Shown here in pieces: positions 8,575-53,022 of a stretch of DNA of 64,000 nucleotides (its first letter is position 1; every line of letters begins with the position of its first letter). The position numbers and the translations under genes are program-made. The stretch is from a virus (lineage: Duplodnaviria; Heunggongvirae; Uroviricota; Caudoviricetes), in IMG/VR virus record IMGVR_UViG_2645727901_000008; one strand, given 5' to 3'. The notes under the pieces were generated by a model. That model ran no database searches and had not been told where the DNA came from. It saw nothing but the letters and a program-made list of their open reading frames with translations.

Positions 8575-8767
8575 AACAAAGCCTCTCAGTCATAACATGG
8601 GGGAAACTGTATGCAGGGTGTGAAATGCGAGAAACAGACAGGCCACCAGTTCAGGGGGATGTGGTTCATAAATCCCCTCACTGGTGACAAGTGACTTTCA
8701 TTAATCTTTATGCGGGGGCCAGCTTCATTTGCTGGCATTAGATTAAAAATTAAACGGAGTGAATGAC

Positions 8768-13614: not shown

Positions 13615-14541
13615 TTAACTAACAATCCAGTCCATAGCAACCATATCCTCTGGCGCTAAATCAATAGCATGGATTTTCCCATCCCGGATAGTGCGCCAGT
13701 GCTTCCTTGATCCGCCTTCGGGCCATACCCATACACCTTCAGACCATGAGGCGCGACGGCATACCGTTGCATATCCACTTCTGATCTTCTCTCTGGCGGT
13801 ATGCAGTGACAGATTATCTTTTGGGATTTCCGGTAAAGGATGATGGATTGCCTGAAACAGCCCCATCTTGGGATGATACCAGCGTTTGTTGCGTGGTTCT
13901 GCCTCCGACATAACCTGCTTGAAGGCTTTCTGGAAGGGGGCCAGGGCCACAATGGAGCGTCGCGCAAGCAAACCATCTGGAGTTAAAAACTCATGCGTAT
14001 CGGTGGGAATCCGGAAAGCGTTAACCAGGTTGCGACATTTGGCTTCGGTCAGGCCACATTTCGCCGCCAGCTGGCGGTAGCCAATGTAGCCTTCCGGAAT
14101 ATTGCCTTTCTTTATTTGCTCGAGTGTTTCAGCGACCATCGATACTTGTGCTGATACCTCGGCTACCTGGGCATTTACGGCGTTGATCCGGCGTTCATGC
14201 TCAAGATGCATTTGCGCCATTTCAGCCAGGATTTCGGCTTTTGATTTTAACTGTACCCGGGCATTCTCCAGTTCGCGCCAGCGGTCCACCAGCCGGGCGG
14301 TGAATTCGGGAGAGAGCTGCGCGACGACGACAATACTATCGCGCTTGCCTTGCTCGCCTTCGAAGACGTAATAGCTCGCCGGGCGGCCTGCGGTGGGCTT
14401 TTCCTCAATTTGAGGAAAAGATATTACGCCCCGTTCCGCCAGGTGTTCAATGGTGCGTTTAACGTTATCAGGGCGCTTACCTACCAGTTCCGCGATCTCA
14501 ATGCTGGTCATTGTCGCTTTTTGAGAGATGGACAGATTCAT
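13615..14541 (-). CDS. Rha-family regulator / antirepressor-like protein with C-terminal DUF2829-like extension (fused form)
   Basis: N-terminus MTSIEIAELVGKRPDNVKRTIE is Rha-like; C-terminus homologous to the separate 66-aa ORF at 51564-51764; start overlaps upstream stop. Confidence 0.65.
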   Translation of the reverse strand: MNLSISQKATMTSIEIAELVGKRPDNVKRTIEHLAERGVISFPQIEEKPTAGRPASYYVFEGEQGKRDSIVVVAQLSPEFTARLVDRWRELENARVQLKSKAEILAEMAQMHLEHERRINAVNAQVAEVSAQVSMVAETLEQIKKGNIPEGYIGYRQLAAKCGLTEAKCRNLVNAFRIPTDTHEFLTPDGLLARRSIVALAPFQKAFKQVMSEAEPRNKRWYHPKMGLFQAIHHPLPEIPKDNLSLHTAREKIRSGYATVCRRASWSEGVWVWPEGGSRKHWRTIRDGKIHAIDLAPEDMVAMDWIVS

Positions 14542-14756
14542 CAGTGCGCCTCCACGCAGTTCATCGGCAGATTCCAGTAATTGAGGATCTCCATCGCATC
14601 AAGAGTGAAGCGAGCAGCAAAAATGCAGGGTTCTTCGGGAAGGTATGAGCGCGCCTCTGCTTCGGTAGCAGCCATGACGCAGATATACAGGTGTTTTTGG
14701 CAGGAATAGAAACGCCAGATAAATTCAGAATGAGTTGGGGTAGGGATAGTAGCCAT
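14541..14756 (-). CDS. Icd-like small protein (assigned by position upstream of the antirepressor-like gene)
   Basis: 71 aa; AAGGAGG RBS; paralog of ORF at 52468-52692; same order as P1 icd-ant. Confidence 0.4.
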   Translation of the reverse strand: MATIPTPTHSEFIWRFYSCQKHLYICVMAATEAEARSYLPEEPCIFAARFTLDAMEILNYWNLPMNCVEAH

Positions 14757-15067
14757 ATTGGCAGCCTCCTTTGACTAAGTTAAGGAGCTACCGCGTGAGG
14801 TTCCAATCTCAATGGCGGTAGCACTGACTGGGTTGGAACTACCGGCGTCAAAGGGAACCGGCCTGCCTTTCGGCAGCCCAGCCAGCACTACCATTGATCT
14901 CTGAGCTAAACGCTACGTATGGCTGTGCGATGGCATGACACAAAAAAAGACGCTTTCGGCGTCTGTGTCGCCTTTGACATTATCCGGGGTTCCAATCCCG
15001 GCACCCGTTTTTCTAAGGTGCCGTAGAAATATACCCCACGATAATGCCAGGGCGCAACAGTCAGTAT

Positions 15068-26849: not shown

Positions 26850-26921
26850 GCTGCAAAGAGCTGGTGCTTTATGCTTGTGAAGTTTATACTTGTGTACACA
26901 TAACGAGTACACGAGGTGTTT

Positions 26922-27143
26922 ATGCAATCCATTAACTTCCGTACCGCGCGTGGCAACCTTTCTGAAGTGCTCAACAATGTTGAAGCCGGGGAAGAGGTTG
27001 AAATCACCCGCAGAGGCCGTGAGCCAGCAGTAATTGTCAGCAAGGCTACTTTCGAAGCCTACAAAAAAGCGGCGCTGGATGCTGAATTTGCATCCCTGTT
27101 TGACACCCTGGACTCCACCAACAAGGAACTGGTTAACCGATAA
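26922..27143 (+). CDS. phd: Phd antitoxin
   Basis: [39 protein letters not shown] matches P1 Phd as I recall it; ATG at 26922 with GAGG RBS. Confidence 0.9.
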
Positions 27144-27523
27144 TGAGGCATATATCACCGGAAGAACTTATTGCGCTTCATGATGCGAATATAAGCCGCT
27201 ACGGCGGCCTGCCGGGAATGTCAGATCCGGGTAGGGCAGAGGCCATTATCGGGAGAGTTCAGGCCAGAGTTGCCTACGACGAGATCACCGACCTTTTCGA
27301 AGTCTCCGCCACCTACCTGGTGGCTACGGCGAGAGGGCATATATTCAATGATGCCAATAAGCGTACCGCGCTAAACAGTGCGCTGCTATTTCTACGCCGT
27401 AACGGTATACAGGTATATGATTCTCCCGTGCTGGTGGAACTTGCGGTGGGGGCCGCAACTGGTGAAATCCCCGTATCTTCAGTAGCGGAAAAACTACGTG
27501 AATTATTTGGTTCCAATATTTGA
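27143..27523 (+). CDS. doc: Doc toxin (Fic-family kinase)
   Basis: [39 protein letters not shown]... matches P1 Doc as I recall it; start overlaps phd stop. Confidence 0.9.
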
Positions 27524-27526
27524 AAA

Positions 27527-27555
27527 GAAGCCCGCTCAACCAGGCGGGCTTCCTA
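27527..27555. terminator. Hairpin GAAGCCCGC-N8-GCGGGCTTC between convergent doc and minus-strand gene
   Basis: Inverted repeat read from sequence; weak U-tract. Confidence 0.35.
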
Positions 27556-27606
27556 CTATCACTCAATGATTTTTTCTGCTGTCAGCCAGCTAATTCGGTG
27601 ATGTTT

Positions 27607-28413
27607 TTAGGCGTCAGCATCAGCATCCTCCGCTACCTCTGCTTCCACATCAGCCACGGCTTCATCGGACGGTTCTTCTTTGGCCTGATCTGCAATCGCC
27701 GCACGGCATTTCGCCCTGGCTGTAGCGATTGCTTCAGCTCGCACATCATCAGGAATCGTTGACGTGATATACATATCCACTTCTTCGGCGCGGAACACTG
27801 TTTGGTCCAGATATTCGCGTAGCATCCAGGTAAATTCGAAATCACACGCGATAATCTCTGCGCTACCTTCTGCACCATTTGAGAAATGAATAAATGCCTG
27901 TTTAGCCAAACCGATAACACGACATGCGGTTGCCAAAACAGCGACAACTAGGTTTACATTTTCACACGCTACGGGCTGATTAACGCCGGAGATTACTCCA
28001 TTTAACTGTCGGTTATATGGAAGGTAGTTTGAGATGCGTTCTACGCGCCATGTGCCAGTCAGGCTGCCATTTTTAAATATAATTGGTGTAACGGATAGCC
28101 CAAGCTCGCGTATAAGTCGTTGCGCTATAGCAGGATCATTAAACAGGTCTAATGCTATACATTCGAAAGACTGCGCAAGGGCAAACAGTTCTTCCAGAGA
28201 GTAGTCTTTGCCCCTGGCGGTGATGTAACGACGAACGCCGCTGTCTGCATCACTCCATATAGCTACGCCATGCTCTTCATTCAGCACTTCATTAAAGCCG
28301 AGATACGTCATGATAGTGCGTTCAATCGTGTCAAACGGCAGTGACATGTCGGCGTTAACAGCCACCAGCAGGCCATTACGCAAGCGGTATTGAATTGTTT
28401 TGGTGCTTTCCAT
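27607..28413 (-). CDS. Hypothetical protein (268 aa) with acidic C-terminal tail
   Basis: Long ORF; C-terminus EEPSDEAVADVEAEVAEDADADA. Confidence 0.45.
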   Translation of the reverse strand: MESTKTIQYRLRNGLLVAVNADMSLPFDTIERTIMTYLGFNEVLNEEHGVAIWSDADSGVRRYITARGKDYSLEELFALAQSFECIALDLFNDPAIAQRLIRELGLSVTPIIFKNGSLTGTWRVERISNYLPYNRQLNGVISGVNQPVACENVNLVVAVLATACRVIGLAKQAFIHFSNGAEGSAEIIACDFEFTWMLREYLDQTVFRAEEVDMYITSTIPDDVRAEAIATARAKCRAAIADQAKEEPSDEAVADVEAEVAEDADADA

Positions 28414-28419
28414 GTCAAA

Positions 28420-29097
28420 TCACTCCACTACAAACCAGTCACATGCCAGTAAGTCGCCTACAGAAGGAACCCACGGAACAACTACACCTTGTGCATTTTT
28501 TAAGGCGAAATAAGCACCATACGGAACGAGGTCGCCGGGGAAATATCCCTTAATGGGTTCCATTCGTGCCGGGTACTGTCCTTCAGGAACCAGCCAGCAG
28601 AATTGGTTTTCGCCGTTCCACCCGCGTCGAGCAACTTTCTTGCCATCCTTCAGCCACATCAGCGCGTCAGAAAAGTCGGCTGCTTCAAGGTCGATTTCTT
28701 CTTGCTGGGTGGTGATGCCACCAGCAGAAATAGTTACGCTCCCGGTAAGATTAATCATCACGCCGTTGTCATCCGTAATGATGACCGTGGTTCCATTTTT
28801 GGCGGCGTCGTTAACCAGGCCATAGCGTTCCTCAAATGGTTTCTCCGGGGCATAGAACAAATAACCGTTTTCATAAACGATCAGATACCCGCCAGTTTTT
28901 GGTCGGTGTTTTTGTAAAAACATTGCGTCAACACAAACTGTTGCCCCTTTTGGCTCAACGAGTTCGATGCAGCCCCAAAGTGGGGCATCAGTTACTCCGA
29001 AAATAACAACATTTTTGATTTTCGATGCACTAACGTTTTTGTGAGCTTTGTATTTGGGAAGGAACTTAAAAAGCTCTTTCGTTGCCATGTTATTCAT
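28420..29097 (-). CDS. Protein with C-terminal DUF2829 (Tad2-like) domain
   Basis: C-terminus ALMWLKDGKKVARRGWNG...VPWVPSVGDLLACDWFVVE fits the DUF2829 pattern as I recall it. Confidence 0.5.
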   Translation of the reverse strand: MNNMATKELFKFLPKYKAHKNVSASKIKNVVIFGVTDAPLWGCIELVEPKGATVCVDAMFLQKHRPKTGGYLIVYENGYLFYAPEKPFEERYGLVNDAAKNGTTVIITDDNGVMINLTGSVTISAGGITTQQEEIDLEAADFSDALMWLKDGKKVARRGWNGENQFCWLVPEGQYPARMEPIKGYFPGDLVPYGAYFALKNAQGVVVPWVPSVGDLLACDWFVVE

Positions 29098-29111
29098 AGT
29101 CTTTTCTCTGC

Positions 29112-29606
29112 TTATAACTTTTCGTACTGAAGCGGTGAACGCTTAATTTCAAAGTGGCCTTCCGATGTGCTACCAAAGCCACCAGCACCACGTTCCGTTT
29201 CGTTGAGTTCCTCAACCTCGACTAGTGAGACTTGTTCAACACGCTCAAAAATGCCTTGCATGACAGCCATTCCTGGCTTGAGACAAACGCCTTCCCCGCC
29301 GGGATCAGTAATCAGTTTTGCCATGATTTCACCGCGATAATCGGAGTCGATAATTCCTACGCAGTTAGCCAGGCGAGTATGTTTTTTGCAGCCCAATCCG
29401 GATCGCGGATAGAGTTTCAGACACCAGCCGGGCGGGATCTCCATAGCCAGTCCGGTATACACCCACCAGCTTGAGGAAATTGCACCATTGCTATCGACGC
29501 ATGTTTTTATTTCAACAGCCTCAAAATCCATCGCCGCCGATCCGGAGGTGGCATAAGCTGGAAGTTTTGCTGCCGGATGTAGGCGTTTCACTTTTACGTA
29601 AATCAT
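29112..29606 (-). CDS. dut: dUTP diphosphatase
   Basis: GIIDSDYRGE and RGAGGFGSTS dUTPase motifs. Confidence 0.85.
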   Translation of the reverse strand: MIYVKVKRLHPAAKLPAYATSGSAAMDFEAVEIKTCVDSNGAISSSWWVYTGLAMEIPPGWCLKLYPRSGLGCKKHTRLANCVGIIDSDYRGEIMAKLITDPGGEGVCLKPGMAVMQGIFERVEQVSLVEVEELNETERGAGGFGSTSEGHFEIKRSPLQYEKL

Positions 29607-30079
29607 TGTTTTTTAGCTCTCTGCGTGAAGGTGTAAACCCGACGTTTGATATGTGGAACGGTAGGAACAGGAAGACAGGAACTTTCAATAACCCCTTGCT
29701 CCTCCAGCGATCGCACCGCCCGCAAGAACTGCGACGTGTCGCCGCCAAACTGGCGGGCATAGGTGCTGCCGTTAAGAAGTATTTGAGCTATTACCCGAGC
29801 TTTTGTCTGGCTGTCACGATATGCGAATAGCCGCACGGCCTCTTCTGGCGCAATCGCTAACTGATAGCCTTTACCGGCACGGTGTCGAATGAATCCATGC
29901 GCCAGTAGGTTTTTGAGTTCGTTACGAGTGCGAACAGATCCGTAATCCAGGAAGTGCGGATTAATAACGACTGGCTTAAACCATTCCGTAGGTGCTTTAG
30001 CTAATAGAGCTAACAGCTTTCCGGACAATTCTGGATAGGAAGACGGGTAACAATTCAGAGATGGGTAATAAGTTTTCAC
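29603..30079 (-). CDS. Hypothetical protein (158 aa)
   Basis: ORF overlapping dut start by 4 nt. Confidence 0.45.
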   Translation of the reverse strand: MKTYYPSLNCYPSSYPELSGKLLALLAKAPTEWFKPVVINPHFLDYGSVRTRNELKNLLAHGFIRHRAGKGYQLAIAPEEAVRLFAYRDSQTKARVIAQILLNGSTYARQFGGDTSQFLRAVRSLEEQGVIESSCLPVPTVPHIKRRVYTFTQRAKKQ

Positions 30080-30420
30080 CGACGCCCCCTTGCAGGATAT
30101 CGACCTGCATCAGTATCCGGTGCGATAAAGCCGGTAGTGGGGCGAGTGAAAGCGAGATTAATCTTCTCGACCATAGTGCGATAATTTTCCTGATAGTGGG
30201 CCAGGAGTTTTTCGGCGGCAATGATGGTTACTTTCCGGACGTAGCTTTCTGCTTCCTCCAGATTTCGCCAGTTTTTTTCGAGGGTAAACACAGGGACGGC
30301 CTCAAGCCCGGTCATGATGCCGAATACAACGACAGCATGACTGTTCTTAACACCAGCAGCGAAGGTTACGGTGTAACCATCCACCTTAAAGCGTCTTGAT
30401 TCCGTGATTTGACTCTGCAA
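30076..30420 (-). CDS. Hypothetical protein (114 aa), TTG start in track
   Basis: ORF; start codon at 30420 is TTG. Confidence 0.4.
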   Translation of the reverse strand: MQSQITESRRFKVDGYTVTFAAGVKNSHAVVVFGIMTGLEAVPVFTLEKNWRNLEEAESYVRKVTIIAAEKLLAHYQENYRTMVEKINLAFTRPTTGFIAPDTDAGRYPARGRR

Positions 30421-30493
30421 AGCACCCTCCGAAATAGGCGAGGGTACTTTACAGCAAAGATAACAATCTAAAAAGATGTGTTAGAAATTTAAT

Positions 30494-31522
30494 TTATGAA
30501 TCCATCAGGCGGCTATTAGCCCCCACAGACACGCCGCCACGGCGCAGATACCGCATAAGTGTTTCCGGTTTCTTCCAGGTTCCTTCCTGCATGATCTCCA
30601 CCATAGACACCTGCTTTTCAGCCATATCGATAGCGGCCCCGACACGAGCACTATGCCCGGTCCACGTCCGGTATCTCCCTTTGTTTGGCGTGGCATCTCT
30701 TTTATTCAGCAACACCCAGGCGTCGCTGAATATTTTCTCCATTGCAGGTGCAGTAAGGGGAGTTGTCGTAATCCTGGCCTTATTGCTACGGTGTATCGGC
30801 GGGAACAGCACCGCGTCAGGATGTTCACGAAGCCCGGAAACATCCAGCCAGTCATTCAGCACTGCGGTAGTGCGACGGGAAAGCACCTTATCAAGCCCGG
30901 CGGCGGTCGTTATTGTCTTCGTGTGTGAAATATGTAGCGTGACAGTGTCACCTGTTTGGTCCAGATCTCCTACACGAATACGCGAGATTTCAGACATTCG
31001 CATCAGCGTATTGTATGCAACGAAGAGGAAAGCCCGGTTACGCAGGTCCACCAGCCGTTCTGACCTGGACAACAGGACGTCGAGCAGTTTCAGATCGTCC
31101 CACCGCAGCGGTATAGCCTGGCCTGTTCGTTCGCCTTTTTCCGTTGCCGCTTCGCGCCGGATGCGCCGCATAGCCAGAGAAACACTTTTATCATCCGAAA
31201 GTGGCGGAAGGCCACAATGCGAAAGCAGCATGTTAAGCATGGCGTAGTGCTTATCAATGGTGGTCGAAGCCAGATCAGCATCATGCAGCTGAAGAAAATA
31301 CTCGCGGGCCATCTCTGGTGAGATCGGGAACCAAGCGAGCTGGCGAGCGTGGCACCATCGCGCCCAGGAGTGAAACACTAACCGGAGATCGCGCAAAGTA
31401 TTCGGCGCGTAAGCCCCCTGGTCATTCATGAACCGCATAAAGTTTTCTGCGGCCTCCTGGTACTCTTTGCCAATGTTGCGCAGAAAACCACCGGAGCTGC
31501 CAGAGATAATTAATTCACTCAT
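30494..31522 (-). CDS. dre: Cre-family tyrosine recombinase (Dre-like)
   Basis: 342 aa; aligns with P1 Cre at NMLLSHCGLPPLSDDKSVSLAMRRIRRE and WTGHSARVGAAIDMAEKQVSMVEIMQEGTW; cognate site is rox-like. Confidence 0.85.
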   Translation of the reverse strand: MSELIISGSSGGFLRNIGKEYQEAAENFMRFMNDQGAYAPNTLRDLRLVFHSWARWCHARQLAWFPISPEMAREYFLQLHDADLASTTIDKHYAMLNMLLSHCGLPPLSDDKSVSLAMRRIRREAATEKGERTGQAIPLRWDDLKLLDVLLSRSERLVDLRNRAFLFVAYNTLMRMSEISRIRVGDLDQTGDTVTLHISHTKTITTAAGLDKVLSRRTTAVLNDWLDVSGLREHPDAVLFPPIHRSNKARITTTPLTAPAMEKIFSDAWVLLNKRDATPNKGRYRTWTGHSARVGAAIDMAEKQVSMVEIMQEGTWKKPETLMRYLRRGGVSVGANSRLMDS

Positions 31523-31673
31523 GAAACTATTTAACCTCTATATACAGATGACGCTACGCAAAAATATAAAAATGACAGGGTAGCTATAAGTTAATTTTCA
31601 AAATTCAAGCCTTTGATTCGAGGCACGTATTTTTAGTGATGTCAACACTGATCATCTACCCATGATTATAGTC

Positions 31674-31705
31674 TAACTTTAAATAATGCCAATTATCTAA
31701 AGTTA
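31674..31705. other. rox-like recombination site TAACTTTAAATAAT-GCCA-ATTATCTAAAGTTA (one substitution relative to rox as recalled), about 150 bp upstream of the recombinase start
   Basis: 14-bp inverted arms around a 4-bp spacer read from sequence; also related to loxP. Confidence 0.8.
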
Positions 31706-36339: not shown

Positions 36340-36732
36340 CTACCAGCGAGACAAACGAACAACATGTTTCACTTTTGCGATCCACTTTCCGCGATAACTA
36401 TTGATTACGGCCTGTGCCAGCTTCAAATTGGCTTCAAAATCAGCCTTACTACCATCAGACTCCACCAGCATTCCTCCATCTATTTCTGGTAAACATAGAT
36501 AATCCTGCTCAACCTGCAGCGGCATTGATGGCTCTCTGAATGGCGTTACTTGCTCTGCTTTCCAGCGAAATCTAACCCTCATCCCCCTGGTGGTCATTAC
36601 TAGATAGCCTGTTATAGTGCTTTTATGGCCCACATCAGTACGCGTGGCATTGCATGACACGATCTTACAGTTAGCGATAGACCACTCCATATTGGTGGCC
36701 TGTTGAGTGCTTAATTTGGTAGTCCCGTACAT
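36340..36732 (-). CDS. Hypothetical protein (130 aa)
   Basis: ORF coupled to the upstream gene. Confidence 0.45.
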   Translation of the reverse strand: MYGTTKLSTQQATNMEWSIANCKIVSCNATRTDVGHKSTITGYLVMTTRGMRVRFRWKAEQVTPFREPSMPLQVEQDYLCLPEIDGGMLVESDGSKADFEANLKLAQAVINSYRGKWIAKVKHVVRLSRW

Positions 36733-37307
36733 CAGAAAGCCTCCCAGTCAGTCGCGATAATATCCACACCAGTTGCAAACCAGTCTGTCTGCGCCTGTAA
36801 ATCACCATTCATCATTACCAGGCGAGGCATCACCATCACATCGCACCCTTCCACAATATCGAATGCCTCTTCCGGCAAGAATTCGAAGAGCTTTTCTTTG
36901 CTGCCAATGCTGCCACGGAACATCGATATATAGCTCCCTTTAGGCCATGATGTCCGCCGGGCATCAAGCCCTTTCATCATCCAGTAAAAAGCCGAGGAAA
37001 AAGGGATATTCTTTTTGCCAATGATTACATTATTCGCTTCTGTGTACTTCAGGAACTTAACTAACCTTACCATTGACTCGGATAACGCAACGTATGGCTC
37101 ATGATTGATTGCTGACACGCTTACACCGTGCAATCCAACGCTTACCACTGTCATATCGCCGCTTTGTGCGGTTTCGATATTGACGCCTTTGCGAACTAAT
37201 GAGGCGTAAAGTTCCTCTCGCTTTTGGGTCCAGCGTTCACGCTTCCCTATGAAGTCACTCAAAATGAGATCTTCTTCTGCATATGCGTTATCGTTCGCCA
37301 TTAACAT
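36732..37307 (-). CDS. Hypothetical protein (191 aa)
   Basis: ORF in track. Confidence 0.45.
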   Translation of the reverse strand: MLMANDNAYAEEDLILSDFIGKRERWTQKREELYASLVRKGVNIETAQSGDMTVVSVGLHGVSVSAINHEPYVALSESMVRLVKFLKYTEANNVIIGKKNIPFSSAFYWMMKGLDARRTSWPKGSYISMFRGSIGSKEKLFEFLPEEAFDIVEGCDVMVMPRLVMMNGDLQAQTDWFATGVDIIATDWEAF

Positions 37308-37761: not shown

Positions 37762-37837
37762 TGGTGGCCCCTACCGGACTTGAACCGGTGACCGTGCGAT
37801 TATGAGTCGCCAGCTCTAACCACTGAGCTAAAGGGCC
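37762..37837 (-). tRNA. tRNA-Ile2 (anticodon CAU, ileX-like; would be read as Met without lysidine context)
   Basis: Reverse complement GGCCCTTTAGCTCAGTGGTTAGAGC...GACTCATAATCGC...GGTTCAAGTCC...GGGGCCACCA nearly matches E. coli ileX. Confidence 0.85.
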
Positions 37838-37848
37838 AATTAGTGTTT

Positions 37849-37962
37849 TATTTTCGACGCCTGAGATTCTTCGCGACTTGTTCTACGCCGTATACGATCA
37901 CAAGTAGAAACAGCAAAAACCATCCAGGGTTCTTATCGATATACGTCCAAAAATCCATCATG
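37849..37962 (-). CDS. Possible small membrane peptide (about 37 aa)
   Basis: Translation MMDFWTYIDKNPGWFLLFLLVIVYGVEQVAKNLRRRK. Confidence 0.25.
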
Positions 37963-38120
37963 AGTTCCTGAACGCACCTTCAATAATCGGCAATAGCAAT
38001 ACCACAGCTACTGAAACTAATGCCCCATCAGCCAACACCGACATCACTTTGCTGGTGAAATCCACCAGTACGGACAAAACGAGAAAGCCAATGGCGCCCG
38101 CAATACGCGCCTTGCCAATC
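37959..38120 (-). CDS. Possible small membrane protein (about 53 aa)
   Basis: Translation MIGKARIAGAIGFLVLSVLVDFTSKVMSVLADGALVSVAVVLLLPIIEGAFRNS. Confidence 0.25.
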
Positions 38121-38121
38121 A

Positions 38122-38577
38122 TTACAGATAATCTTCCACACGAAGGCCAAGACGGCGACCAACCTCTTCCAGAACCTTATGCTCCGCAGGTTCGATTTCA
38201 CCATCTGCTTCAGCGATCGTGAGCATGTTCACGAAGACTTCTTCCGCTTCTTTGGGATCGTTTTTGATATCTTCAATTTCGCGGAGGATATTCATGCGAC
38301 CAACACGGAAACCAGCTTCCAGTTGCTCAGTAAAACGGGTGATTGTTGCGGTAATTTCGTTGCCAAAATGACTTAAGCGAGGATTAGAGCGGACAAGCTG
38401 ATCAAGTTTCGCTGTTTCTTCCTTTTCGATTTCACCATCTGCGGCAGACACCAGCAAACAGCCACCGATGATGGCCTCCATCAGATCGCGATTCTCAACC
38501 CTTTTCAGCTCTACTTTTGCTGAAGCGACTTTCTTACCGAAAAATTTACCGAACATTGGTTTTCCCTCAATAAACAT
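38122..38577 (-). CDS. TerB-like (tellurite-resistance family) protein; start may be ATG at 38556
   Basis: Repeated helical ...ADGEIE... segments typical of TerB-like proteins; GAGGGAAAA RBS before the internal ATG. Confidence 0.5.
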   Translation of the reverse strand: MFIEGKPMFGKFFGKKVASAKVELKRVENRDLMEAIIGGCLLVSAADGEIEKEETAKLDQLVRSNPRLSHFGNEITATITRFTEQLEAGFRVGRMNILREIEDIKNDPKEAEEVFVNMLTIAEADGEIEPAEHKVLEEVGRRLGLRVEDYL

Positions 38578-38823
38578 GACGTATTTATTAGGTTGCGGTG
38601 CCTGGTGCCTCCAGGTGACGTTAACCAGTTAACAATTAACGCCGGGATTTTTGTCTTCACAATTAAGGAGGATTGTTTTAACTGTTCCGCGTGCGCTTAG
38701 CCGCATTCACCGCAATGGTAAGAGCACTTGGCTGGCTGGGCGGCGATGACGCCTGTACGCATTTGGTGAACCGGTTCTGCTTCCGGCATTCGCTTAATTA
38801 GCCAAATACTCTTAACGTTGCAC

Positions 38824-38910
38824 TGGCGGAGAGTAATGGAATCGAACCATCATCGCTTGCGCAATGGGACGGTTTTCAAGACCGCTTGAGCACCATGCTC
38901 CCTACTCTCC
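38824..38910 (-). tRNA. tRNA-Ser-like (anticodon UGA, long variable arm), atypical D-arm
   Basis: 7-bp acceptor GGAGAGT/ACTCTCC, anticodon loop CTTGAAA, T-loop TTCGATT, encoded CCA; folded by eye. Confidence 0.5.
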
Positions 38911-39045
38911 CGTTATTGTGGCGACCGGTGCTGATCTCCGGCTTGCGGTTATTTCAGACTCTCACGGGCGTTTAATTGCCCCGCCGAACAGCTCTTTTCC
39001 GCAATAGCTGCAATGTCTTTCGCGCATCAGCCTGCGCATTCACCA

Positions 39046-39135
39046 CAATGTTGAGAACACTGGTTGTCACGCTGCAACGCAACATTTATTCGTAGATTGG
39101 GATATGACCCCGTTACGCCAGTGTTCTCAACGTTG
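39046..39135. repeat. 18-bp inverted repeat CAATGTTGAGAACACTGG ... CCAGTGTTCTCAACGTTG flanking about 54 bp
   Basis: Read from sequence; one mismatch between arms. Confidence 0.55.
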
Positions 39136-39283
39136 TAGTGCCGGTTACGGTTCCGGCCAGGCCTCTTCCTCAACGGGTTGTTCTCCATACGGACTACCGT
39201 TTATTGGTCGTTCCTGCGGTTTATGTTGTGAAGCCAGATGCTTATCTTCTGGTTGCTTCAAAGAGCTGCACTTCATCACAACG

Positions 39284-39356
39284 GTAAGGGTACTTCGTAG
39301 GGATTCGAACCCTCTGCCAAGCACGGCGATCTCCGACGTCGCAAAATACCCTTACC
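39284..39356 (-). other. tRNA-like element with T-arm (GGGTTCGAATCCC) and 10-bp closing stem but no canonical anticodon arm; possible tRNA pseudogene
   Basis: Folded by eye; T-loop present, cloverleaf incomplete. Confidence 0.25.
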
Positions 39357-39364
39357 TGTTGCGT

Positions 39365-39440
39365 TGGTGCCGATTAACGGGATCGAACCGCTGACCATTC
39401 GCTTACAAAGCGACTGCTCTACCAACTGAGCTAAACCGGC
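39365..39440 (-). tRNA. tRNA-Thr (anticodon UGU)
   Basis: Reverse complement GCCGGTTTAGCTCAGTTGGTAGAGC...CTTTGTAAG...GGTTCGATCC...CGGCACCA. Confidence 0.85.
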
Positions 39441-39444
39441 AATT

Positions 39445-39531
39445 TGGTGGGGAGTGATGGAGTCGAACCACCCGAGTCGCAATGACAGTAGATTTACAGT
39501 CTACCCCGCTACCCCTACGGACTAACTCCCC
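39445..39531 (-). tRNA. tRNA-Tyr-like (anticodon GUA, class II long variable arm)
   Basis: Acceptor GGGGAGT/ACTCCCC, anticodon stem-loop GTAGA-CTGTAAA-TCTAC, T-loop TTCGACT, encoded CCA. Confidence 0.6.
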
Positions 39532-39536
39532 TAAAG

Positions 39537-39612
39537 TGGCGATGGTGGGTGGATTCGAACCACCGACCGACAGCTTAGAAGGCTGCTGCTCTATCCTACT
39601 GAGCTACACCAT
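39537..39612 (-). tRNA. tRNA-Arg (anticodon UCU)
   Basis: Reverse complement GATGGTGTAGCTCAGTAGGATAGAGC...CTTCTAA...GGTTCGAATCC...CACCATCGCCA. Confidence 0.85.
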
Positions 39613-40853
39613 CACTTGCCGGGTACGTCTCCGGCGAGGGCTTCCACCTCCGTATGCTTTTCGGCGCACCGCGCCCTGGCTGCAATTCAGTAACAGGGGA
39701 TGCATAACCCTGGCTTCCAGCGTGATTAGCGCCTTCAGCATGACGGGATATACCCGTAACCAACAAACTTTCCCATATACCATCAAACAATGGCTGTTAC
39801 GCGGGAGGGACGTAACAGGTAAGGGCGCTGACCAGAAAGACCTGACCCTTCTCATTCATCTGGTTAATCACACCAGCGCCCTTGCCTGTTATGTCTCCCC
39901 GTTCCCTAATACACAGACGGGGACACTCTGCGGTCGATTTTTTGACGGGGGACGACTCATACCCCGTGGCGTCTGGCTTCTTAGGCCGCTACCATCATCA
40001 GATCATCGTTTGCATTTACTTTAATGGTCGGTTTCTAAACCGCCGCAAAGCCGCTAACCATGACGAAAACCCTAAAAAAGCCCACCCGAAGATGGGCAAA
40101 TACGCTACATCTCACACAAGAAAGAAGCCGACTGCCTGAGCTGGATTCACTTTCAAATGCCCGCAGAAAGGGAACACAAGTCGGCTTCTTTCTTGATGCG
40201 GCACTCTCTCCGCCCGTCACCGTTCTGTCTCGGTTGTCGCGTTTGCCACGCCAGCCGTAACGAGGTTTAAAGTCTTTGCACGTTTCCATCACTCGACTGC
40301 CGTCTGTGGCTGTTCGTTGCAGCGGGGGTGCCTCCCCCTGGGGATATCCCCGGCCTTACCCCATTCTTTCAAGACACAATGCAAGGCCGCATCCGCATAG
40401 GTGCATTACCGCAACATTAAGGAGACTTAGGGCAAAAGGTAATCGCCACAAAAAAAATCCCTATGCCTCCTTAATGTTGAGGATGTGCATTGATGATGAT
40501 TCGATGCGGCGAGTCCCGTTACTCTCTGCCGGACCATCATCAATGAACATCTTAAAAAGACCTTCCGTGGCTCAACATGTCTTGTCGTTTACTCCGTAAA
40601 GTGCTCTCTCTGAAACCACTTTACGCACTAAACCTGCTGAACTTTGGCTTGCTCGGTGCCAAAGCGAGTCCCTGTATGTATGTAATTTTCTAACACTTTA
40701 ATTTGTTATTTGCTGGTGGGCGAACAACAACCAATAAGTGACTATCAAGCCCAGCAAGCGAAATGTGGCAACGCTCCACCAGCAAGGAAAATTCTAAGTT
40801 AAGTTACTCTCACAATCAATACGTTCGTTTAGTGAAATTAGATTTCTAACATT
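39613..40853. other. About 1.2 kb without a convincing CDS; rich in long-loop inverted repeats
   Basis: Only short, overlapping ORFs in all frames; 13-bp inverted repeat CAACATTAAGGAG...CTCCTTAATGTTG around 40408-40478 and others. Confidence 0.4.
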
Positions 40854-42177: not shown

Positions 42178-42492
42178 TTATTGTGTCATTGCCTGGTAGA
42201 TAAAATACACGATGCATACCGGTACGATAGCCCATTGCAGCAATGAAAGCAGCCTCATGGCTGTCATGGGAGTAACTCCATCTACGTATTCCTTCTCTGA
42301 CATTTTCCCTAACCAACTAACCGACAAAAGGGTCGAGTTCTCCCCCATTTCCAGCTCCCTGAGGGCTTCCCGGATTAAAGGCGCTGTTACCACCTTGCGG
42401 GCAGTGTTGAGCGTAATGCTCCGCGTCCTCCCGGCGTCATCGGCAAACGCCAGGTTCACATGATATTTTTTGCTCAATGTACAAACTCCCAA
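42178..42492 (-). CDS. Hypothetical membrane protein (104 aa)
   Basis: C-terminal hydrophobic LLSLLQWAIVPVCIVYFIY. Confidence 0.4.
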   Translation of the reverse strand: MGVCTLSKKYHVNLAFADDAGRTRSITLNTARKVVTAPLIREALRELEMGENSTLLSVSWLGKMSEKEYVDGVTPMTAMRLLSLLQWAIVPVCIVYFIYQAMTQ

Positions 42493-42674
42493 TCATTGGC
42501 TTTCGCGCTTTCCGGGGTAATGCATACCTTGTCGCCGGTAACTATGTTTCGGGCTTCTAATGCCCCATCATCCATCTTTTTAAGCTCTATACAGAAAGAA
42601 TGAGGCCATGAGCAGCGACGAGCAACAACGTTAGCACCAGCAGGGATAAGTTCAGCCACGTTAAGTAAACGCAA
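42474..42674 (-). CDS. Hypothetical small protein (66 aa)
   Basis: ORF in track. Confidence 0.3.
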   Translation of the reverse strand: MRLLNVAELIPAGANVVARRCSWPHSFCIELKKMDDGALEARNIVTGDKVCITPESAKANDWEFVH

Positions 42675-42688
42675 AACGATTTCTCCGT

Positions 42689-43132
42689 TTAATCAAGACA
42701 AACATATTCCGTGATAGCTTTTATGGCTTCATCGGCACTGCGCGCCTCAAAGCAGTAATAGCCTGCTTCCGTGAGGCGAGTCATCCAGACGAGCTGTTCG
42801 GGAGTCAGACGGTTTCTCCCGTGCTTCATCTCAATGCGCATTCCGTGATACCCACCACGAGCAAGGTCAATAGAAAGGTCCGGATAGCCCTTCTTCTGAC
42901 CTTCTGCCACCATCTTAATGGCTGTCCTTTTGCCTCTCAGGCCGCCGTTCGGTGTTGAGTGTGTGTGCTCATACACGTATCGCATGTTGCGATACAGCCA
43001 ATCCAGAACGCGAACCTGTTCGTAATGTTCGTAATTCCGTTTTAATAAGTCAGGATTTCTTTCTAACTCTCTCAGTGCAGCAGCGTGCGGGGATATTTCA
43101 GAATACGCACTATGATGCCTGCGTCTTCGCAT
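42689..43132 (-). CDS. VRR-NUC domain nuclease-like protein
   Basis: GYPDLSIDLARGGYHGMRIEMKHGRNRLTPEQ resembles the VRR-NUC (PD-(D/E)xK) motif; ATG at 43132. Confidence 0.6.
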   Translation of the reverse strand: MRRRRHHSAYSEISPHAAALRELERNPDLLKRNYEHYEQVRVLDWLYRNMRYVYEHTHSTPNGGLRGKRTAIKMVAEGQKKGYPDLSIDLARGGYHGMRIEMKHGRNRLTPEQLVWMTRLTEAGYYCFEARSADEAIKAITEYVCLD

Positions 43133-43320
43133 CAAATTTCTAACACAAACTTACTGAATTCATGAACACGATAATAACAAGAGCGTTAGTTTTATCAAAC
43201 CGAGGGGAATACTACTGAAGAGATAGGCGGATGCAACAGGTCGGACTTGTTTTTAGAGTAAATGGTGATGCGGGTCAACAAGCCGGGTAAATTGTATGTC
43301 ATTTACCCAACTTGTTATTT

Positions 43321-51563: not shown

Positions 51564-51764
51564 TCAATTCACGATCCAATCATTACCGACTATATCAGCC
51601 GTCGATAAATCAACTTCCCGGATCTGGAGTCCATTAATACAAAACCATCCGGTAGTAGAGTAATTATCAGGCCAGGCCCATACACCAACACTCCATGCTT
51701 TACGGCGGCACACTTCAGCCTGTCCTTCCCTGATTTTTTTTACCGCCTGCATGATGTCCATCAC
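51564..51764 (-). CDS. DUF2829-like small protein (66 aa), separate-ORF counterpart of the C-terminus of ORF 13615-14541
   Basis: AVKKIREGQAEVCRRKAW...ADIVGNDWIV; GTGATG start overlaps upstream stop. Confidence 0.45.
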   Translation of the reverse strand: MMDIMQAVKKIREGQAEVCRRKAWSVGVWAWPDNYSTTGWFCINGLQIREVDLSTADIVGNDWIVN

Positions 51765-52468
51765 TCACCTCCCCAACCGATCACCTGGAATTGCCCCATT
51801 TTGGGGTGATACCAGCGTTTTCCTCGGTGTTCAGCCTCCGACATCATCCGGTTAAAAGCATTCATGAAGGGAGATAAGGCCACGATGGAACGACGCGACA
51901 ATACCCCCTCTGGAGTTAAAAACTCATGTGTATCGGTGGGGATCCGGTAAGCGTTAACCAGGTTGCGACATTTGGCTTCGGTCAGGCCGCATTTTGCCGC
52001 CAGCTGGCGGTAGCCAATGTAACCTTCCGGCATGTTGCCCTTCTTGATTTGCTCGACGGTTTCTACCACCTGGCTAACCTTTGACTCAACAACATGAAGC
52101 CGCTTTTGCTGCTGAACTGCATTTGCAGCCATTGCGGCGATCATCTCTATTTCGGTCAACGGCTGGCGTGCTTGTTCTTCCAGTTCGCGCCAGCGGTCCA
52201 CCAGCCGGGCGGTGAATTCGGGAGAGAGCTGCGCGACGACGATAATGCTATCGCGCTTGCCTTGCTCGCCTTCGAAGACGTAAGCCTCAACACTACGTCG
52301 TAGTCCTAAGTTATTGATTTTTTCGAAAACCTCAATTTGAGGACGAACAATAACGCCACCTTTGTCTAATGTCTCAATAGTGCGTTTCACATTGTCATGA
52401 CGTTTTCCCACCAGCTCCGCGATCTCAATGCTGGTCATTGATGGCTTTTCGAGAATGCAGATATCCAT
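51761..52468 (-). CDS. Rha-family regulator / antirepressor-like protein (split form)
   Basis: MTSIEIAELVGKRHDNVKRTIE N-terminus; two DNA stretches nearly identical to copy 1. Confidence 0.65.
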   Translation of the reverse strand: MDICILEKPSMTSIEIAELVGKRHDNVKRTIETLDKGGVIVRPQIEVFEKINNLGLRRSVEAYVFEGEQGKRDSIIVVAQLSPEFTARLVDRWRELEEQARQPLTEIEMIAAMAANAVQQQKRLHVVESKVSQVVETVEQIKKGNMPEGYIGYRQLAAKCGLTEAKCRNLVNAYRIPTDTHEFLTPEGVLSRRSIVALSPFMNAFNRMMSEAEHRGKRWYHPKMGQFQVIGWGGE

Positions 52469-52692
52469 CAGTGAGCCTCCGCAATGCCGGGATTGGTAAT
52501 ATTGCGATACCAGGGATTGGTGTTTGGTTGTGGGGAAGTGGAGAAACGACCAGTGAGAACGCCATACTGATCAGGGATCAGAGAACGGGCTTCTTTTTCA
52601 GTTGCGGCAATTGCGAAGTGATCGCAGTGTTTTTGCAGGGAGTGAAAACGCCAGATGAATTCTGGACGTGAGCAAGGATTGGCATTAACCAT
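52468..52692 (-). CDS. Icd-like small protein (paralog of 14541-14756)
   Basis: Shares PEFIWRF...AIAATE...AH with the paralog. Confidence 0.4.
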   Translation of the reverse strand: MVNANPCSRPEFIWRFHSLQKHCDHFAIAATEKEARSLIPDQYGVLTGRFSTSPQPNTNPWYRNITNPGIAEAH

Positions 52693-53022
52693 AGTTACGG
52701 CCTCACTAACAGGTTTAACAACCTGCTACCCGCTGCTAAACAGGTGGCAGGACGTGACGGGGTTAGCAGACTGGCGTTAGTGAAACCAGCAGGCCGAAGC
52801 CTCCCCATCACGCCCCACCATAATTTGGGCGTAACGCGGTTTTACGGACACAAAAATACCGCAATATCGGATATCTGCGGTTGTCCGCACTAACATTCAG
52901 GCTGCTAAACCCGGTCGCAGAATTTGCTACGACGACATGAATATAAGCCTGAAAACATGGAAGATCAACTAAAAATTTCAGCAATAGATGACTTCAGTCG
53001 ATGATGCAGATCATACATTCCG

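What the first reader, a model, noticed from the sequence alone, without database searches (positions are those of the whole stretch)
28420..29097. Three DUF2829 (Tad2-like) domains in one window: candidate sponges for defence signalling nucleotides
The 225-aa protein ends with ALMWLKDGKKVARRGWNG...VPWVPSVGDLLACDWFVVE, which fits the DUF2829 pattern, the family to which the anti-Thoeris sponge Tad2 belongs as I recall. Weaker DUF2829-like segments occur at the C-terminus of 13615-14541 and as the 66-aa ORF at 51564-51764. Here the domain is fused to larger N-terminal domains, which would be unusual for a sponge protein.
Basis: partly seen in the sequence, partly recalled or inferred. Interest (0 to 1): 0.6.

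Follow-up and report, generated by a model that had tools for sequence, protein, structure and literature searches.

The report
Tad2-like immune-signal sponge domains in a phage-plasmid
A D6-type phage-plasmid of E. coli carries a clear relative of the phage "sponge" Tad2, which soaks up bacterial alarm nucleotides, fused to a capsid-decoration-like domain, plus four more diverged copies of the same fold; the family is known, but the fusion partners and the number of copies have not been described.

Summary

The two "weaker" segments fall below Pfam's threshold. Transitive hits, profile-profile alignment and a confident AlphaFold model show a real, insertion-less 65-aa "mini" Tad2 fold. Both sit in C4-RNA-controlled icd-antirepressor operons.

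My own scan found two more copies:
- a second Pfam-significant domain in a 191-aa protein (36732-37307);
- a third mini copy (42474-42674).

The window is a D6-like phage-plasmid. RefSeq already labels the main gene DUF2829, and a 2025 survey reports Tad2 in 93% of D6 elements. Tad2 fusions to other sponges (Acb4, Sequestin) are published.

Three things are not described:
- the N-terminal domain, which is homologous to the phage L Dec OB fold;
- the antirepressor-linked mini-domains;
- the hypervariable second-pocket insertion.

Most likely this is an intracellular sponge for TIR-derived ADPR signals. Ligand identity and any role of the extra domains are untested.

The parts
28420..29097 (-). 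Gene for the 225-aa OB(Dec-like)-linker-Tad2 fusion protein, the subject of the finding
   Evidence: ORF. PF11195 at 80.1 bits. phrog_872 over the whole length. 97% identical region in phage D6, annotated as a DUF2829 protein. Present in 213 of 5426 complete E. coli genomes, almost always on plasmids of about 75-110 kb.
28423..28689 (-). Tad2-like domain (aa 137-225), ModTad2-type, with a 33-aa beta2-beta5 insertion
28807..29070 (-). N-terminal OB-fold domain (aa ~10-97), homologous to the capsid-binding OB fold of the phage L decoration protein Dec; phrog_11049
28690..28806 (-). Variable linker (aa 98-136), beta-rich in this variant, with weak similarity to the start of the Dec beta-helix
   Evidence: pLDDT 54-66. 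The phmmer alignment to Dec extends to aa 126. Homologues have a helical linker or none in its place. Mean pairwise identity 33%.
27607..28413 (-). IsaA homologue (268 aa, phrog_2326), 6 bp downstream; conserved partner of the Tad2-fusion gene
   Evidence: 46% identical to P1 IsaA. Same gene pair and order in P1-like phage SJ46. No Pfam, PDB or NCBIfam assignment.
29112..29606 (-). dUTPase gene, 14 bp upstream, same strand
   Evidence: PF00692 at E=5.7e-15. The natural variant P0056 fuses dUTPase directly to the Tad2 domain.
31665..31692 (-). Sigma-70-like promoter upstream of dre; candidate promoter for dre-orf114-orf158-dut-tad2 fusion-isaA
   Evidence: TTGGCA-16-TATAAT, 11 of 12 matches. 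Co-transcription is inferred from tight spacing and the absence of a predicted terminator in between.
27530..27545 (-). Terminator-like hairpin just after the isaA-like gene
36732..37307 (-).
   Evidence: PF11195 at E=1.1e-9, 39.1 bits, above the cut-off of 25. hhalign probability 88.6%. 100% identical to a D6 hypothetical protein and found in no other phage record.
13615..14541 (-). Rha/Roi-type putative antirepressor (308 aa, D6 orf82) with a fused C-terminal mini Tad2-like domain (aa ~243-308 = 13618-13815)
   Evidence: Phage_pRha and phrog_63 'Ant'; the C-terminus hits phrog_7385 at E=5e-16. D6 annotation 'putative anti-repressor'. PF11195 only 9.8 bits.
51564..51764 (-). 66-aa stand-alone mini Tad2-like ORF, with start overlapping the stop of the 235-aa antirepressor paralogue (GTGATG)
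   Evidence: phrog_7385 at E=7e-49. PF11195 at 14.9 bits. AF2 pLDDT 89.8. Top six Foldseek hits are Tad2 structures, TM 0.72-0.75. The cluster of P0121 holds 165 sequences.
51761..52468 (-). Second Rha/Roi-type antirepressor paralogue (235 aa), without the fused domain
   Evidence: 67% identical to aa 1-232 of the 308-aa protein. Phage_pRha at 36.8 bits.
42474..42674 (-). Third candidate mini Tad2-like ORF (66 aa, TTG start; D6 orf11; phrog_7206)
   Evidence: Mini-domain HMM at E=2e-4 among 948 six-frame ORFs. hhalign to the mini family: probability 89%, P=2e-6, end to end. No direct match to Tad2 or Pfam.
14811..14898 (-). C4 antisense RNA upstream of icd-like (14541-14756) and the 308-aa antirepressor
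   Evidence: Rfam RF01695 at 77.1 bits, gathering score 45.
52740..52825 (-). Second C4 antisense RNA (with its a1/b1 target at 52894-52946) upstream of icd-like (52468-52692), the 235-aa antirepressor and the 66-aa ORF
   Evidence: Rfam RF01695 at 70 bits; RF03163 at 51.5 bits.

Best explanation
The 225-aa protein is an intracellular anti-defence 'sponge' of a D6-type phage-plasmid.

Its C-terminal Tad2 domain (aa 137-225) most likely forms the Tad2 homotetramer. It would sequester a TIR-made, ADP-ribose-derived alarm nucleotide in the canonical inter-dimer pocket. The best guess for the ligand is His-ADPR of type II Thoeris, as for its closest solved relative ModTad2. Sequestration would stop the Thoeris effector from being switched on. 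The 33-aa beta2-beta5 insertion is of the ModTad2 type and may form a second pocket, which in ModTad2 binds cUMP/cCMP from Pycsar.

The N-terminal Dec-like OB domain is an exchangeable accessory module, not the core activity. The 191-aa protein (36732-37307) is a second, more diverged member of the same family.

The three 65-aa 'mini' domains share the fold but cannot be called sponges on present evidence.

Shown here: family membership, fold, partial conservation of the pocket motifs (W160, W209, S212 and D215 invariant; the NG of the GWNG loop present here but variable among homologues), and gene context. Inferred: tetramer formation, ligand identity, and the anti-Thoeris effect.
For: - PF11195 at 80 bits, full length.
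- ModTad2 and its close homologues inhibit type II Thoeris by binding His-ADPR (bioRxiv 10.1101/2024.01.03.573942). ModTad2 also binds cUMP/cCMP at a second interface (PMC12393519).
- The residues that bind gcADPR in HgmTad2 (W21/N22/G23 loop; W87, S90, D93) correspond to W160-N161-G162, W209, S212 and D215 here. W160, W209, S212 and D215 are invariant in 32 homologues; N161 and G162 are not. The 'W-x-P-S-V-x-D' string is shared with ModTad2.
- The Tad2 core is the best-conserved part of the protein: 78% and 67% mean pairwise identity, against 42% for the N-domain, 33% for the linker and 26% for the insertion.
- The domain survives with quite different partners: OB, a second beta-barrel, Sequestin, or dUTPase, and in reversed order.
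- The gene lies in a non-structural operon (dre...dut-tad2-isaA) with a sigma-70-like promoter. In P1-like phages it lies just after ssb; in P1 itself ssb is transcribed from C1-operator-controlled promoters.
- DefenseFinder calls Tad2 in 93% of D6 elements.
Against: - There is no experiment on this protein or any close relative.
- Ligand specificity in Tad2 varies between close homologues, and about a quarter of the sponge homologues tested across Acb2, Tad1 and Tad2 inhibited none of seven systems (PMC12393519).
- The position equivalent to HgmTad2 T92 / ModTad2 S is Gly214 here.
- The insertion is modelled with low confidence (pLDDT 45-63).
- Oligomeric state could not be predicted with these tools. 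A trimer-forming Dec-like N-terminal part could interfere with tetramer formation.
- Known sponges are small stand-alone proteins, whereas this one carries a 135-aa extension of unknown role.
Confidence: 0.62

Rival explanations
1. Dual sponge. The N-terminal OB domain (and the second beta-barrel module seen in homologues) is itself a new ligand-sequestering module, so the protein neutralises two different immune signals, as the published Tad2-Acb4 and Tad2-Sequestin fusions do.
For: - 'Guilt by fusion' is how Sequestin was discovered (PMC12265669).
- The same Tad2 domain in related phage-plasmids is joined to Sequestin PF21825 (P0062, P0071, P0096) and to OB or beta-barrel modules in shuffled order.
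- The OB domain exists as stand-alone 91-95-aa phage proteins, for example in an accessory region of Bas106.
- OB folds include small-ligand and nucleic-acid binders (Mop/ModG, HIN, SSB).
- The modules also hit PHROGs annotated as MazG-like nucleotide pyrophosphatases.
Against: - The only specific homologue is a capsid decoration protein.
- The domain is much less conserved than the Tad2 core.
- It is dispensable in the natural variants P0056 and P0062.
- No pocket or oligomer analysis was possible.
- It resembles no solved sponge in a PDB copy that runs to April 2026.
Confidence: 0.15
2. Virion protein. The Dec-like OB domain plus beta-helix-like linker anchors the protein as a trimer on the D6 capsid. 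The Tad2-like domain would then be displayed or carried with the particle, and would not act as a free cytoplasmic sponge.
For: - Homology to the Dec OB fold covers all of Dec aa 14-92 and runs into the start of its beta-helix.
- In Ralstonia phage GP4 the stand-alone OB protein lies between the portal and major head genes.
- A rare variant, P0006, carries a tail-fibre repeat at its N-terminus.
Against: - The gene is not in a structural or late operon. It sits with dre, dut and isaA here and after ssb in P1-like phages.
- No P1-type late-promoter motif lies nearby.
- The linker is replaced by a helix or deleted in homologues, and the domain order is reversed in P0087.
- Tad2 ligands are intracellular.
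- Other stand-alone OB homologues sit in accessory regions.
Confidence: 0.07
3. The mini Tad2-like domains (the C-terminus of the 308-aa antirepressor and the 66-aa ORFs) are not sponges. They would be oligomerisation or partner-binding modules of the C4-controlled antirepressor system that merely share the Tad2 fold.
For: - They fall below the Pfam threshold.
- They lack the whole beta2-beta5 insertion. The equivalents of N22/G23, W87 and S90 are not conserved; only W24 and D57 are invariant.
- One copy is fused to, and another translationally coupled with, Rha/Roi-type antirepressors behind C4 RNAs. This fused/split pattern suggests a functional link.
- The family is tiny: 7 hits in 1.84e9 representatives.
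Against: - They occur as stand-alone 66-96-aa ORFs in this element and in other phage-plasmid-like contigs, with no antirepressor called among the neighbouring genes.
- In HgmTad2 the canonical gcADPR pocket is built from core elements, not from the insertion, so a minimal core could still bind a ligand.
- Expression from an early, transiently derepressed operon would also suit an anti-defence protein.
Confidence: 0.5
4. The DUF2829 domain acts as an anti-CRISPR, as was first proposed for AcrIIA7.
For: AcrIIA7 (8kbi, 9kzr) is among the PDB hits.
Against: Li et al. could not reproduce Cas9 inhibition and showed that AcrIIA7/HgmTad2 is a gcADPR and cGG sponge. E. coli lacks type II CRISPR-Cas (established knowledge).
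Confidence: 0.02

Closest known systems
ModTad2 / MoTad2 (Myroides odoratus prophage Tad2; PDB 8V3E apo, 9EIB with His-ADPR)
   Different: ModTad2 is a stand-alone 89-aa protein, whereas here the domain is the C-terminal third of a 225-aa protein. Gly214 replaces Ser. Binding and oligomer state are untested.
HgmTad2/AcrIIA7 and SPO1 Tad2 (PDB 8KBI-8KBM, 8SME-8SMG)
   Same: Same fold and canonical pocket motif.
   Different: More distant (E=5e-10 and 1e-8). HgmTad2 has a longer insertion that binds cGG/cGAMP, and SPO1 Tad2 has a shorter one. Both bind 3'cADPR, not His-ADPR.
Published sponge fusions: Acb4-Tad2 (Pasteurella phage Pm86) and Tad2-Sequestin PF21825 (PMC12265669)
   Same: A Tad2 domain joined to another module in one polypeptide. 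Close homologues of this very domain carry Sequestin (P0062, P0071, P0096).
   Different: The window protein's partner is neither Acb4 nor Sequestin. It is a Dec-like OB fold with no Pfam family, which a Pfam-based fusion search would not have seen.
Phage L decoration protein Dec (PDB 6E3C)
   Same: The N-terminal domain is homologous to the Dec OB fold (profile E=2.5e-6 over Dec aa 14-92, including the shared 'KPE.GGYL...G.L.Y....FE..Y' string).
   Different: Dec continues into a trimeric beta-helix and binds capsids. Here the continuation is short, variable and followed by Tad2; the gene is in a non-structural operon; capsid binding is untested.
P1/P7 immI module (c4 antisense RNA - icd - ant)
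   Same: Both antirepressor loci of the window have a C4 RNA (RF01695), an icd-like ORF and an antirepressor in that order.
   Different: The antirepressor is of the Rha/Roi type. It carries a fused 65-aa Tad2-like domain or is followed by one as a separate ORF. The element has two such cassettes.

Membership tests
Tad2 / PF11195 (225-aa protein, aa 137-225) | Profile match above Pfam's gathering score over the full domain | tested here: met
   80.1 bits against a cut-off of 25, profile 2-73/73.
Tad2 / PF11195 (225-aa protein, aa 137-225) | Tad2 fold: N-terminal helix, antiparallel sheet, insertion between beta2 and the next core strand, short C-terminal helix | tested here: met
Tad2 / PF11195 (225-aa protein, aa 137-225) | Canonical ADPR-signal pocket residues (HgmTad2 W21-N22-G23, W87, S90, T92, D93) | tested here: met
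   W160-N161-G162, W209, S212 and D215 are present in the window protein. W160, W209, S212 and D215 are invariant in 32 homologues; N161 and G162 are not. The T92 equivalent is G214 (S in ModTad2).
Tad2 / PF11195 (225-aa protein, aa 137-225) | Homotetramer (dimer of dimers) with pockets at protomer interfaces | not testable with these tools
   Only monomer prediction was available.
Tad2 / PF11195 (225-aa protein, aa 137-225) | Binds a TIR- or cyclase-made signal and relieves Thoeris, Pycsar or CBASS | not testable with these tools
   Needs biochemistry and phage assays.
Tad2 / PF11195 (225-aa protein, aa 137-225) | Small stand-alone protein (~90-105 aa) | tested here: not met
   The protein is 225 aa with a 135-aa N-terminal extension. 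Fusions are, however, documented for the family.
Tad2 / PF11195 (191-aa protein 36732-37307) | Profile match above the gathering score | tested here: met
   39.1 bits against 25, aa 103-190. Pocket motif partly kept: SWPKG, and W-F-A-T-G-V-D.
Tad2 / PF11195 (mini-domains: 51564-51764, C-terminus of 13615-14541, 42474-42674) | Profile match above the gathering score | tested here: not met
   14.9 bits, 9.8 bits and no hit.
Tad2 / PF11195 (mini-domains) | Tad2 core fold | tested here: met
   For the 66-aa ORF: AF2 pLDDT 89.8, and the six best Foldseek hits are Tad2 at TM 0.72-0.75; hhalign probability 52-91%. The other two are linked only through homology to this ORF.
Tad2 / PF11195 (mini-domains) | Canonical pocket residues | tested here: inconclusive
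   The W (W24) and D (D57) equivalents are invariant. The equivalents of N22/G23, W87 and S90 vary.
Dec-type capsid decoration protein | Dec OB-fold domain | tested here: met
   Profile E=2.5e-6 to 6e3c aa 14-92. Foldseek E=1.9e-3.
Dec-type capsid decoration protein | C-terminal trimeric beta-helix spike | tested here: inconclusive
   A short beta-rich linker of low confidence, with weak similarity to the first turns only. Homologues replace or delete it.
Dec-type capsid decoration protein | Structural or late gene context; presence in virions | tested here: not met
   Context was tested: the gene lies in the dre-dut-isaA operon and no late-promoter motif is nearby. Virion presence is not testable here.
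P1-type immI cassette (context of the mini-domains) | C4 antisense RNA followed by icd and an antirepressor | tested here: met
   RF01695 at 77 and 70 bits. icd-like ORFs and Rha-type antirepressors. D6 annotation.

The most novel reading that the evidence does not exclude
The 65-aa insertion-less Tad2-like domain that is fused to, or translationally coupled with, the C4-controlled antirepressor is a ligand sensor, not a sponge. It would bind an immune signalling nucleotide made when the lysogen is attacked by another phage. It would then modulate the antirepressor, so that the phage-plasmid switches to lytic growth and escapes a cell whose abortive-infection alarm has gone off. Under this reading, the five Tad2-fold copies in one element are a family used for both sequestering and sensing host alarm molecules.
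Probability: 0.05. Interest if true: 0.85.

Novelty: new variant of a known kind. Interest (0 to 1): 0.45.

Why it matters
D6/P1-type phage-plasmids are common in pathogenic E. coli, Shigella and Salmonella. This gene is in about 4% of complete E. coli genomes.

If the protein is a ModTad2-type sponge, these elements disarm type II Thoeris, and possibly Pycsar, possibly even from the plasmid state. That would affect which other phages can infect the host, including therapeutic ones.

The fusion partners give concrete, cheap candidates for new signal-binding modules that Pfam-based fusion searches could not see. These are the Dec-like OB domain and a second beta-barrel module.

The hypervariable second-pocket insertion on an otherwise conserved core is a natural series for studying how ligand specificity changes.

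The minimal 65-aa Tad2 core tied to antirepressor operons is a previously undescribed context for this fold.

None of this changes the basic picture of sponges. It extends a known family.

Tried and rejected
- The word-indexed homologue searches with the 66-aa ORF and with the N-domain returned only near-identical relatives. The exhaustive representative search and tblastn were needed instead.
- My narrow enterobacterial Tad2 HMM did not detect the mini-domains. Only Pfam's broader model, transitive hits, hhalign and the structure model did.
- No P1 C1-operator consensus is present in the window at up to 3 mismatches. The P1 late-promoter motif occurs once, far away at 8689. Timing of expression therefore could not be fixed from P1 regulatory sites.
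- P1 IsaA and IsaB are not Tad2 relatives.
- IsaA-like, orf114 and orf158 have no Pfam, NCBIfam or PDB assignment.
- The second beta-barrel module of homologues has no PDB sequence relative.
- Lockin was considered for the N-domain and rejected. It is a beta-rich hexamer that its authors could not find in full-length phage genomes in INPHARED, whereas this domain is present in several such phages.
- The Nature version of the His-ADPR paper and the supplements with tested Tad2 sequences are not held. The His-ADPR contact residues of 9EIB could therefore not be checked one by one.
- The anti-CRISPR reading was rejected on published evidence.

Full report
**What the window is.** The region 27000-31600 is 97% identical to Escherichia phage D6 and to more than 100 full-length plasmid matches among 1268 plasmid records. 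The window holds phd/doc, the dre recombinase, dUTPase, c1, pacAB, lpa, darB-like and tRNA genes in D6 order. It is therefore a D6-type (P1-related) phage-plasmid of E. coli.

**The observation.**
- The 225-aa product of 28420-29097 matches Pfam PF11195, now called "Tad2-like" and formerly DUF2829. The match covers the whole profile at 80.1 bits against a cut-off of 25.
- Against the PDB its best relatives are ModTad2 (9EIB, 8V3E; E=1e-19, about 50% identity over aa 137-225), then AcrIIA7/HgmTad2, SPO1 Tad2 and SptTad2.

**The two weaker segments.**
- They are real but diverged. The 66-aa ORF scores 14.9 bits and the C-terminus of the 308-aa protein scores 9.8 bits on PF11195, both below threshold.
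- The two are 45% identical to each other and form phrog_7385.
- An exhaustive profile search of 1.84 billion representatives found only seven relatives. One of them, P0128, is a bona fide PF11195 member at 37.4 bits. Another, P0125, scores 23.9 bits.
- hhalign aligns the family end to end with a Tad2 alignment, probability 52-91%.
- The AlphaFold2 model of the 66-aa ORF is confident (pLDDT 89.8). Its six best PDB matches are all Tad2, at query TM 0.72-0.75. One caveat is that the seven-sequence alignment included P0128.
- These are insertion-less "mini" Tad2 cores of about 65 aa.

**Two more copies.**
- ORF 36732-37307 (191 aa, D6 orf6) has PF11195 at 39.1 bits at its C-terminus.
- ORF 42474-42674 (66 aa, D6 orf11) aligns end to end with the mini family, probability 89%, but not directly with Tad2.
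- The element thus has two canonical and three mini Tad2-fold domains.

**Anatomy of the main protein.**
- Residues 98-136 are a low-confidence beta-rich linker with weak similarity to the start of the Dec beta-helix.
- Among homologues the linker is replaced by a helix or is missing. A second beta-barrel module or a C-terminal Sequestin (PF21825) domain may be added. The domain order can be reversed (P0087). In P0056 the OB domain is replaced by dUTPase through a deletion.
- The Tad2 core is the most conserved segment, at 78% and 67% mean pairwise identity. The N-domain is at 42%. The beta2-beta5 insertion is at 26% and comes in at least four length classes of 18, 24, 33 and 41 aa.
- In HgmTad2 and ModTad2 that insertion region forms the second pocket, which binds cyclic dinucleotides or cUMP.

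**Pocket residues.**
- The gcADPR-binding residues of HgmTad2 are the W21-N22-G23 loop, W87, S90 and D93. They correspond to W160-N161-G162, W209, S212 and D215 here. W160, W209, S212 and D215 are invariant in 32 homologues; N161 and G162 are present here but vary among homologues.
- The W-x-P-S-V-x-D string matches ModTad2 rather than HgmTad2.
- I could not check the 9EIB His-ADPR contacts one by one, because the paper that describes them is not held.

**Context.**
- The gene is tightly packed on the minus strand between dut (14 bp upstream) and an IsaA homologue (6 bp downstream; 46% identical to P1 IsaA).
- A strong sigma-70-like promoter lies upstream of dre, and a terminator-like hairpin follows isaA. 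An operon dre-orf114-orf158-dut-tad2-isaA is therefore inferred.
- In the P1-like phage SJ46 the same tad2-isaA pair follows ssb. In RCS47 the Tad2-fusion gene likewise follows ssb but is cut by IS26. In P1, ssb is under C1 operator control. None of these contexts is structural.
- The mini-domains sit in two immI-like cassettes. Each has a C4 antisense RNA (Rfam, 77 and 70 bits), an icd-like ORF and a Rha/Roi-type antirepressor. The domain is then either fused (308 aa) or present as an overlapping separate ORF.
- Other mini-family members are stand-alone ORFs in contigs of about 90 kb. At least one (L009, and the short contig L010) carries ParM/StbA plasmid-partition genes.

**Mechanism.**
- Published work shows that Tad2 proteins are homotetrameric sponges. 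They sequester 3'cADPR (SPO1, Hgm) or His-ADPR (ModTad2) in an inter-dimer pocket. Cyclic dinucleotides or cUMP/cCMP bind in a second pocket built from the insertion.
- The main protein has high similarity to ModTad2, the invariant core of its pocket motifs and a ModTad2-length insertion. The best-supported reading is therefore an intracellular sponge for a TIR-derived ADPR signal, most likely His-ADPR, with a possible second ligand.
- Tetramer formation, ligand identity and the biological effect are all inferred.
- The role of the OB domain is open. It could be a second ligand-binding module (guilt by fusion; stand-alone small phage proteins; co-occurrence with MazG-like PHROGs). It could be an oligomerising or virion-anchoring Dec-like module, or an inert carrier.
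- For the mini-domains a sponge role is possible but unsupported. An oligomerisation or regulatory role in the antirepressor system is at least as likely.

**Comparison with what is known.**
- The family, the sponge mechanism and sponge-sponge fusions are all published.
- RefSeq already calls this gene a "DUF2829 domain-containing protein".
- A 2025 survey using DefenseFinder reports Tad2 in 93% of D6 and 56% of P1 phage-plasmids.
- I found nothing in the literature searches on the following: the Dec-like OB partner, the second D6-specific Tad2-like protein, the mini Tad2 subfamily tied to C4-controlled antirepressors, or the insertion hypervariability in this lineage.
- I therefore rate the finding a new variant of a known kind, of moderate interest.

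**Side result.** Reference phage P1 lacks this gene because of a clean deletion. P1 IsaA (320 aa) consists of the 57-aa leader that precedes the Tad2-fusion gene in SJ46 (86% identity), joined to the IsaA body (95% identity). In RCS47 the gene is cut by IS26.

Noticed in passing
window 36732-37307 (-): A second Pfam-significant Tad2-like domain (39.1 bits, aa 103-190) in a 191-aa protein. It is annotated only as 'hypothetical' in D6 (orf6), sits upstream of orf5-lpa-pacAB, and occurs in no other phage record. Its N-terminal 100 aa have no assignment.
   Followed up: partly
window 42474-42674 (-): A 66-aa TTG-start ORF (D6 orf11, phrog_7206) between a VRR-NUC protein (42689-43135) and a pmgR-like gene. 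It aligns end to end with the mini Tad2-like family (hhalign probability 89%), making it a possible fifth copy of the fold.
   Followed up: partly
window 14811-15021 (-) and 52740-52946 (-): Two complete immI-like cassettes in one element. Each has a C4 antisense RNA followed by icd-like and Rha/Roi-type antirepressor genes. The first also has an isrK-like RNA hit (RF01394, 62.7 bits) and the second has the c4 a1/b1 target element.
   Followed up: partly
L002 4570-5532 (P1 isaA) against L011 2833-4467 (SJ46): P1 IsaA is a deletion fusion. Its first ~57 aa match the leader that precedes the Tad2-fusion gene in SJ46, and the rest is IsaA. Reference P1 has therefore lost the Tad2 gene. IS1 sits just downstream in P1, and IS26 cuts the gene in RCS47 (L001).
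   Followed up: yes
window 28498-28596 (aa 168-200 of the 225-aa protein) and alignment A1: The beta2-beta5 insertion of the Tad2 domain comes in at least four unrelated length classes (18, 24, 33, 41 aa) among otherwise very similar phage-plasmid proteins. This suggests cassette-like exchange of the second ligand pocket.
   Followed up: partly
proteins P0056 and P0006 (homologues from E. coli plasmids): Two natural rearranged variants. P0056 joins dUTPase directly to the Tad2 domain through a deletion at a shared 'AGG' string that removes the OB domain. P0006 replaces the first strand of the OB domain with a phage tail-fibre repeat (PF03406).
   Followed up: partly
proteins P0059, P0068, P0071, P0076, P0095, P0096: A second small beta-barrel module ('GDWII.G..GE.YPCKP.IF..TYEP'; phrog_419/4502/1810) recurs between the N-terminal domains and Tad2. 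This module and the OB domain also hit PHROGs annotated as MazG-like nucleotide pyrophosphatases.
   Followed up: no
window 27607-28413 (-): The IsaA homologue (268 aa, acidic C-terminal tail) always accompanies the Tad2-fusion gene, in both D6-like and P1-like elements. It has no detectable family, so a functional link is possible.
   Followed up: partly
window 37762-39613 (-): A cluster of five tRNA genes (Met, Ser-UGA, Thr, Tyr, Arg-UCU). The D6 RefSeq record annotates three tRNAs (Asn, Thr, Ser) at the matching place.
   Followed up: no
window 26916-27523 (+): A phd/doc toxin-antitoxin pair, 95% identical to that of P1, lies directly beside the operon and is convergently transcribed.
   Followed up: no
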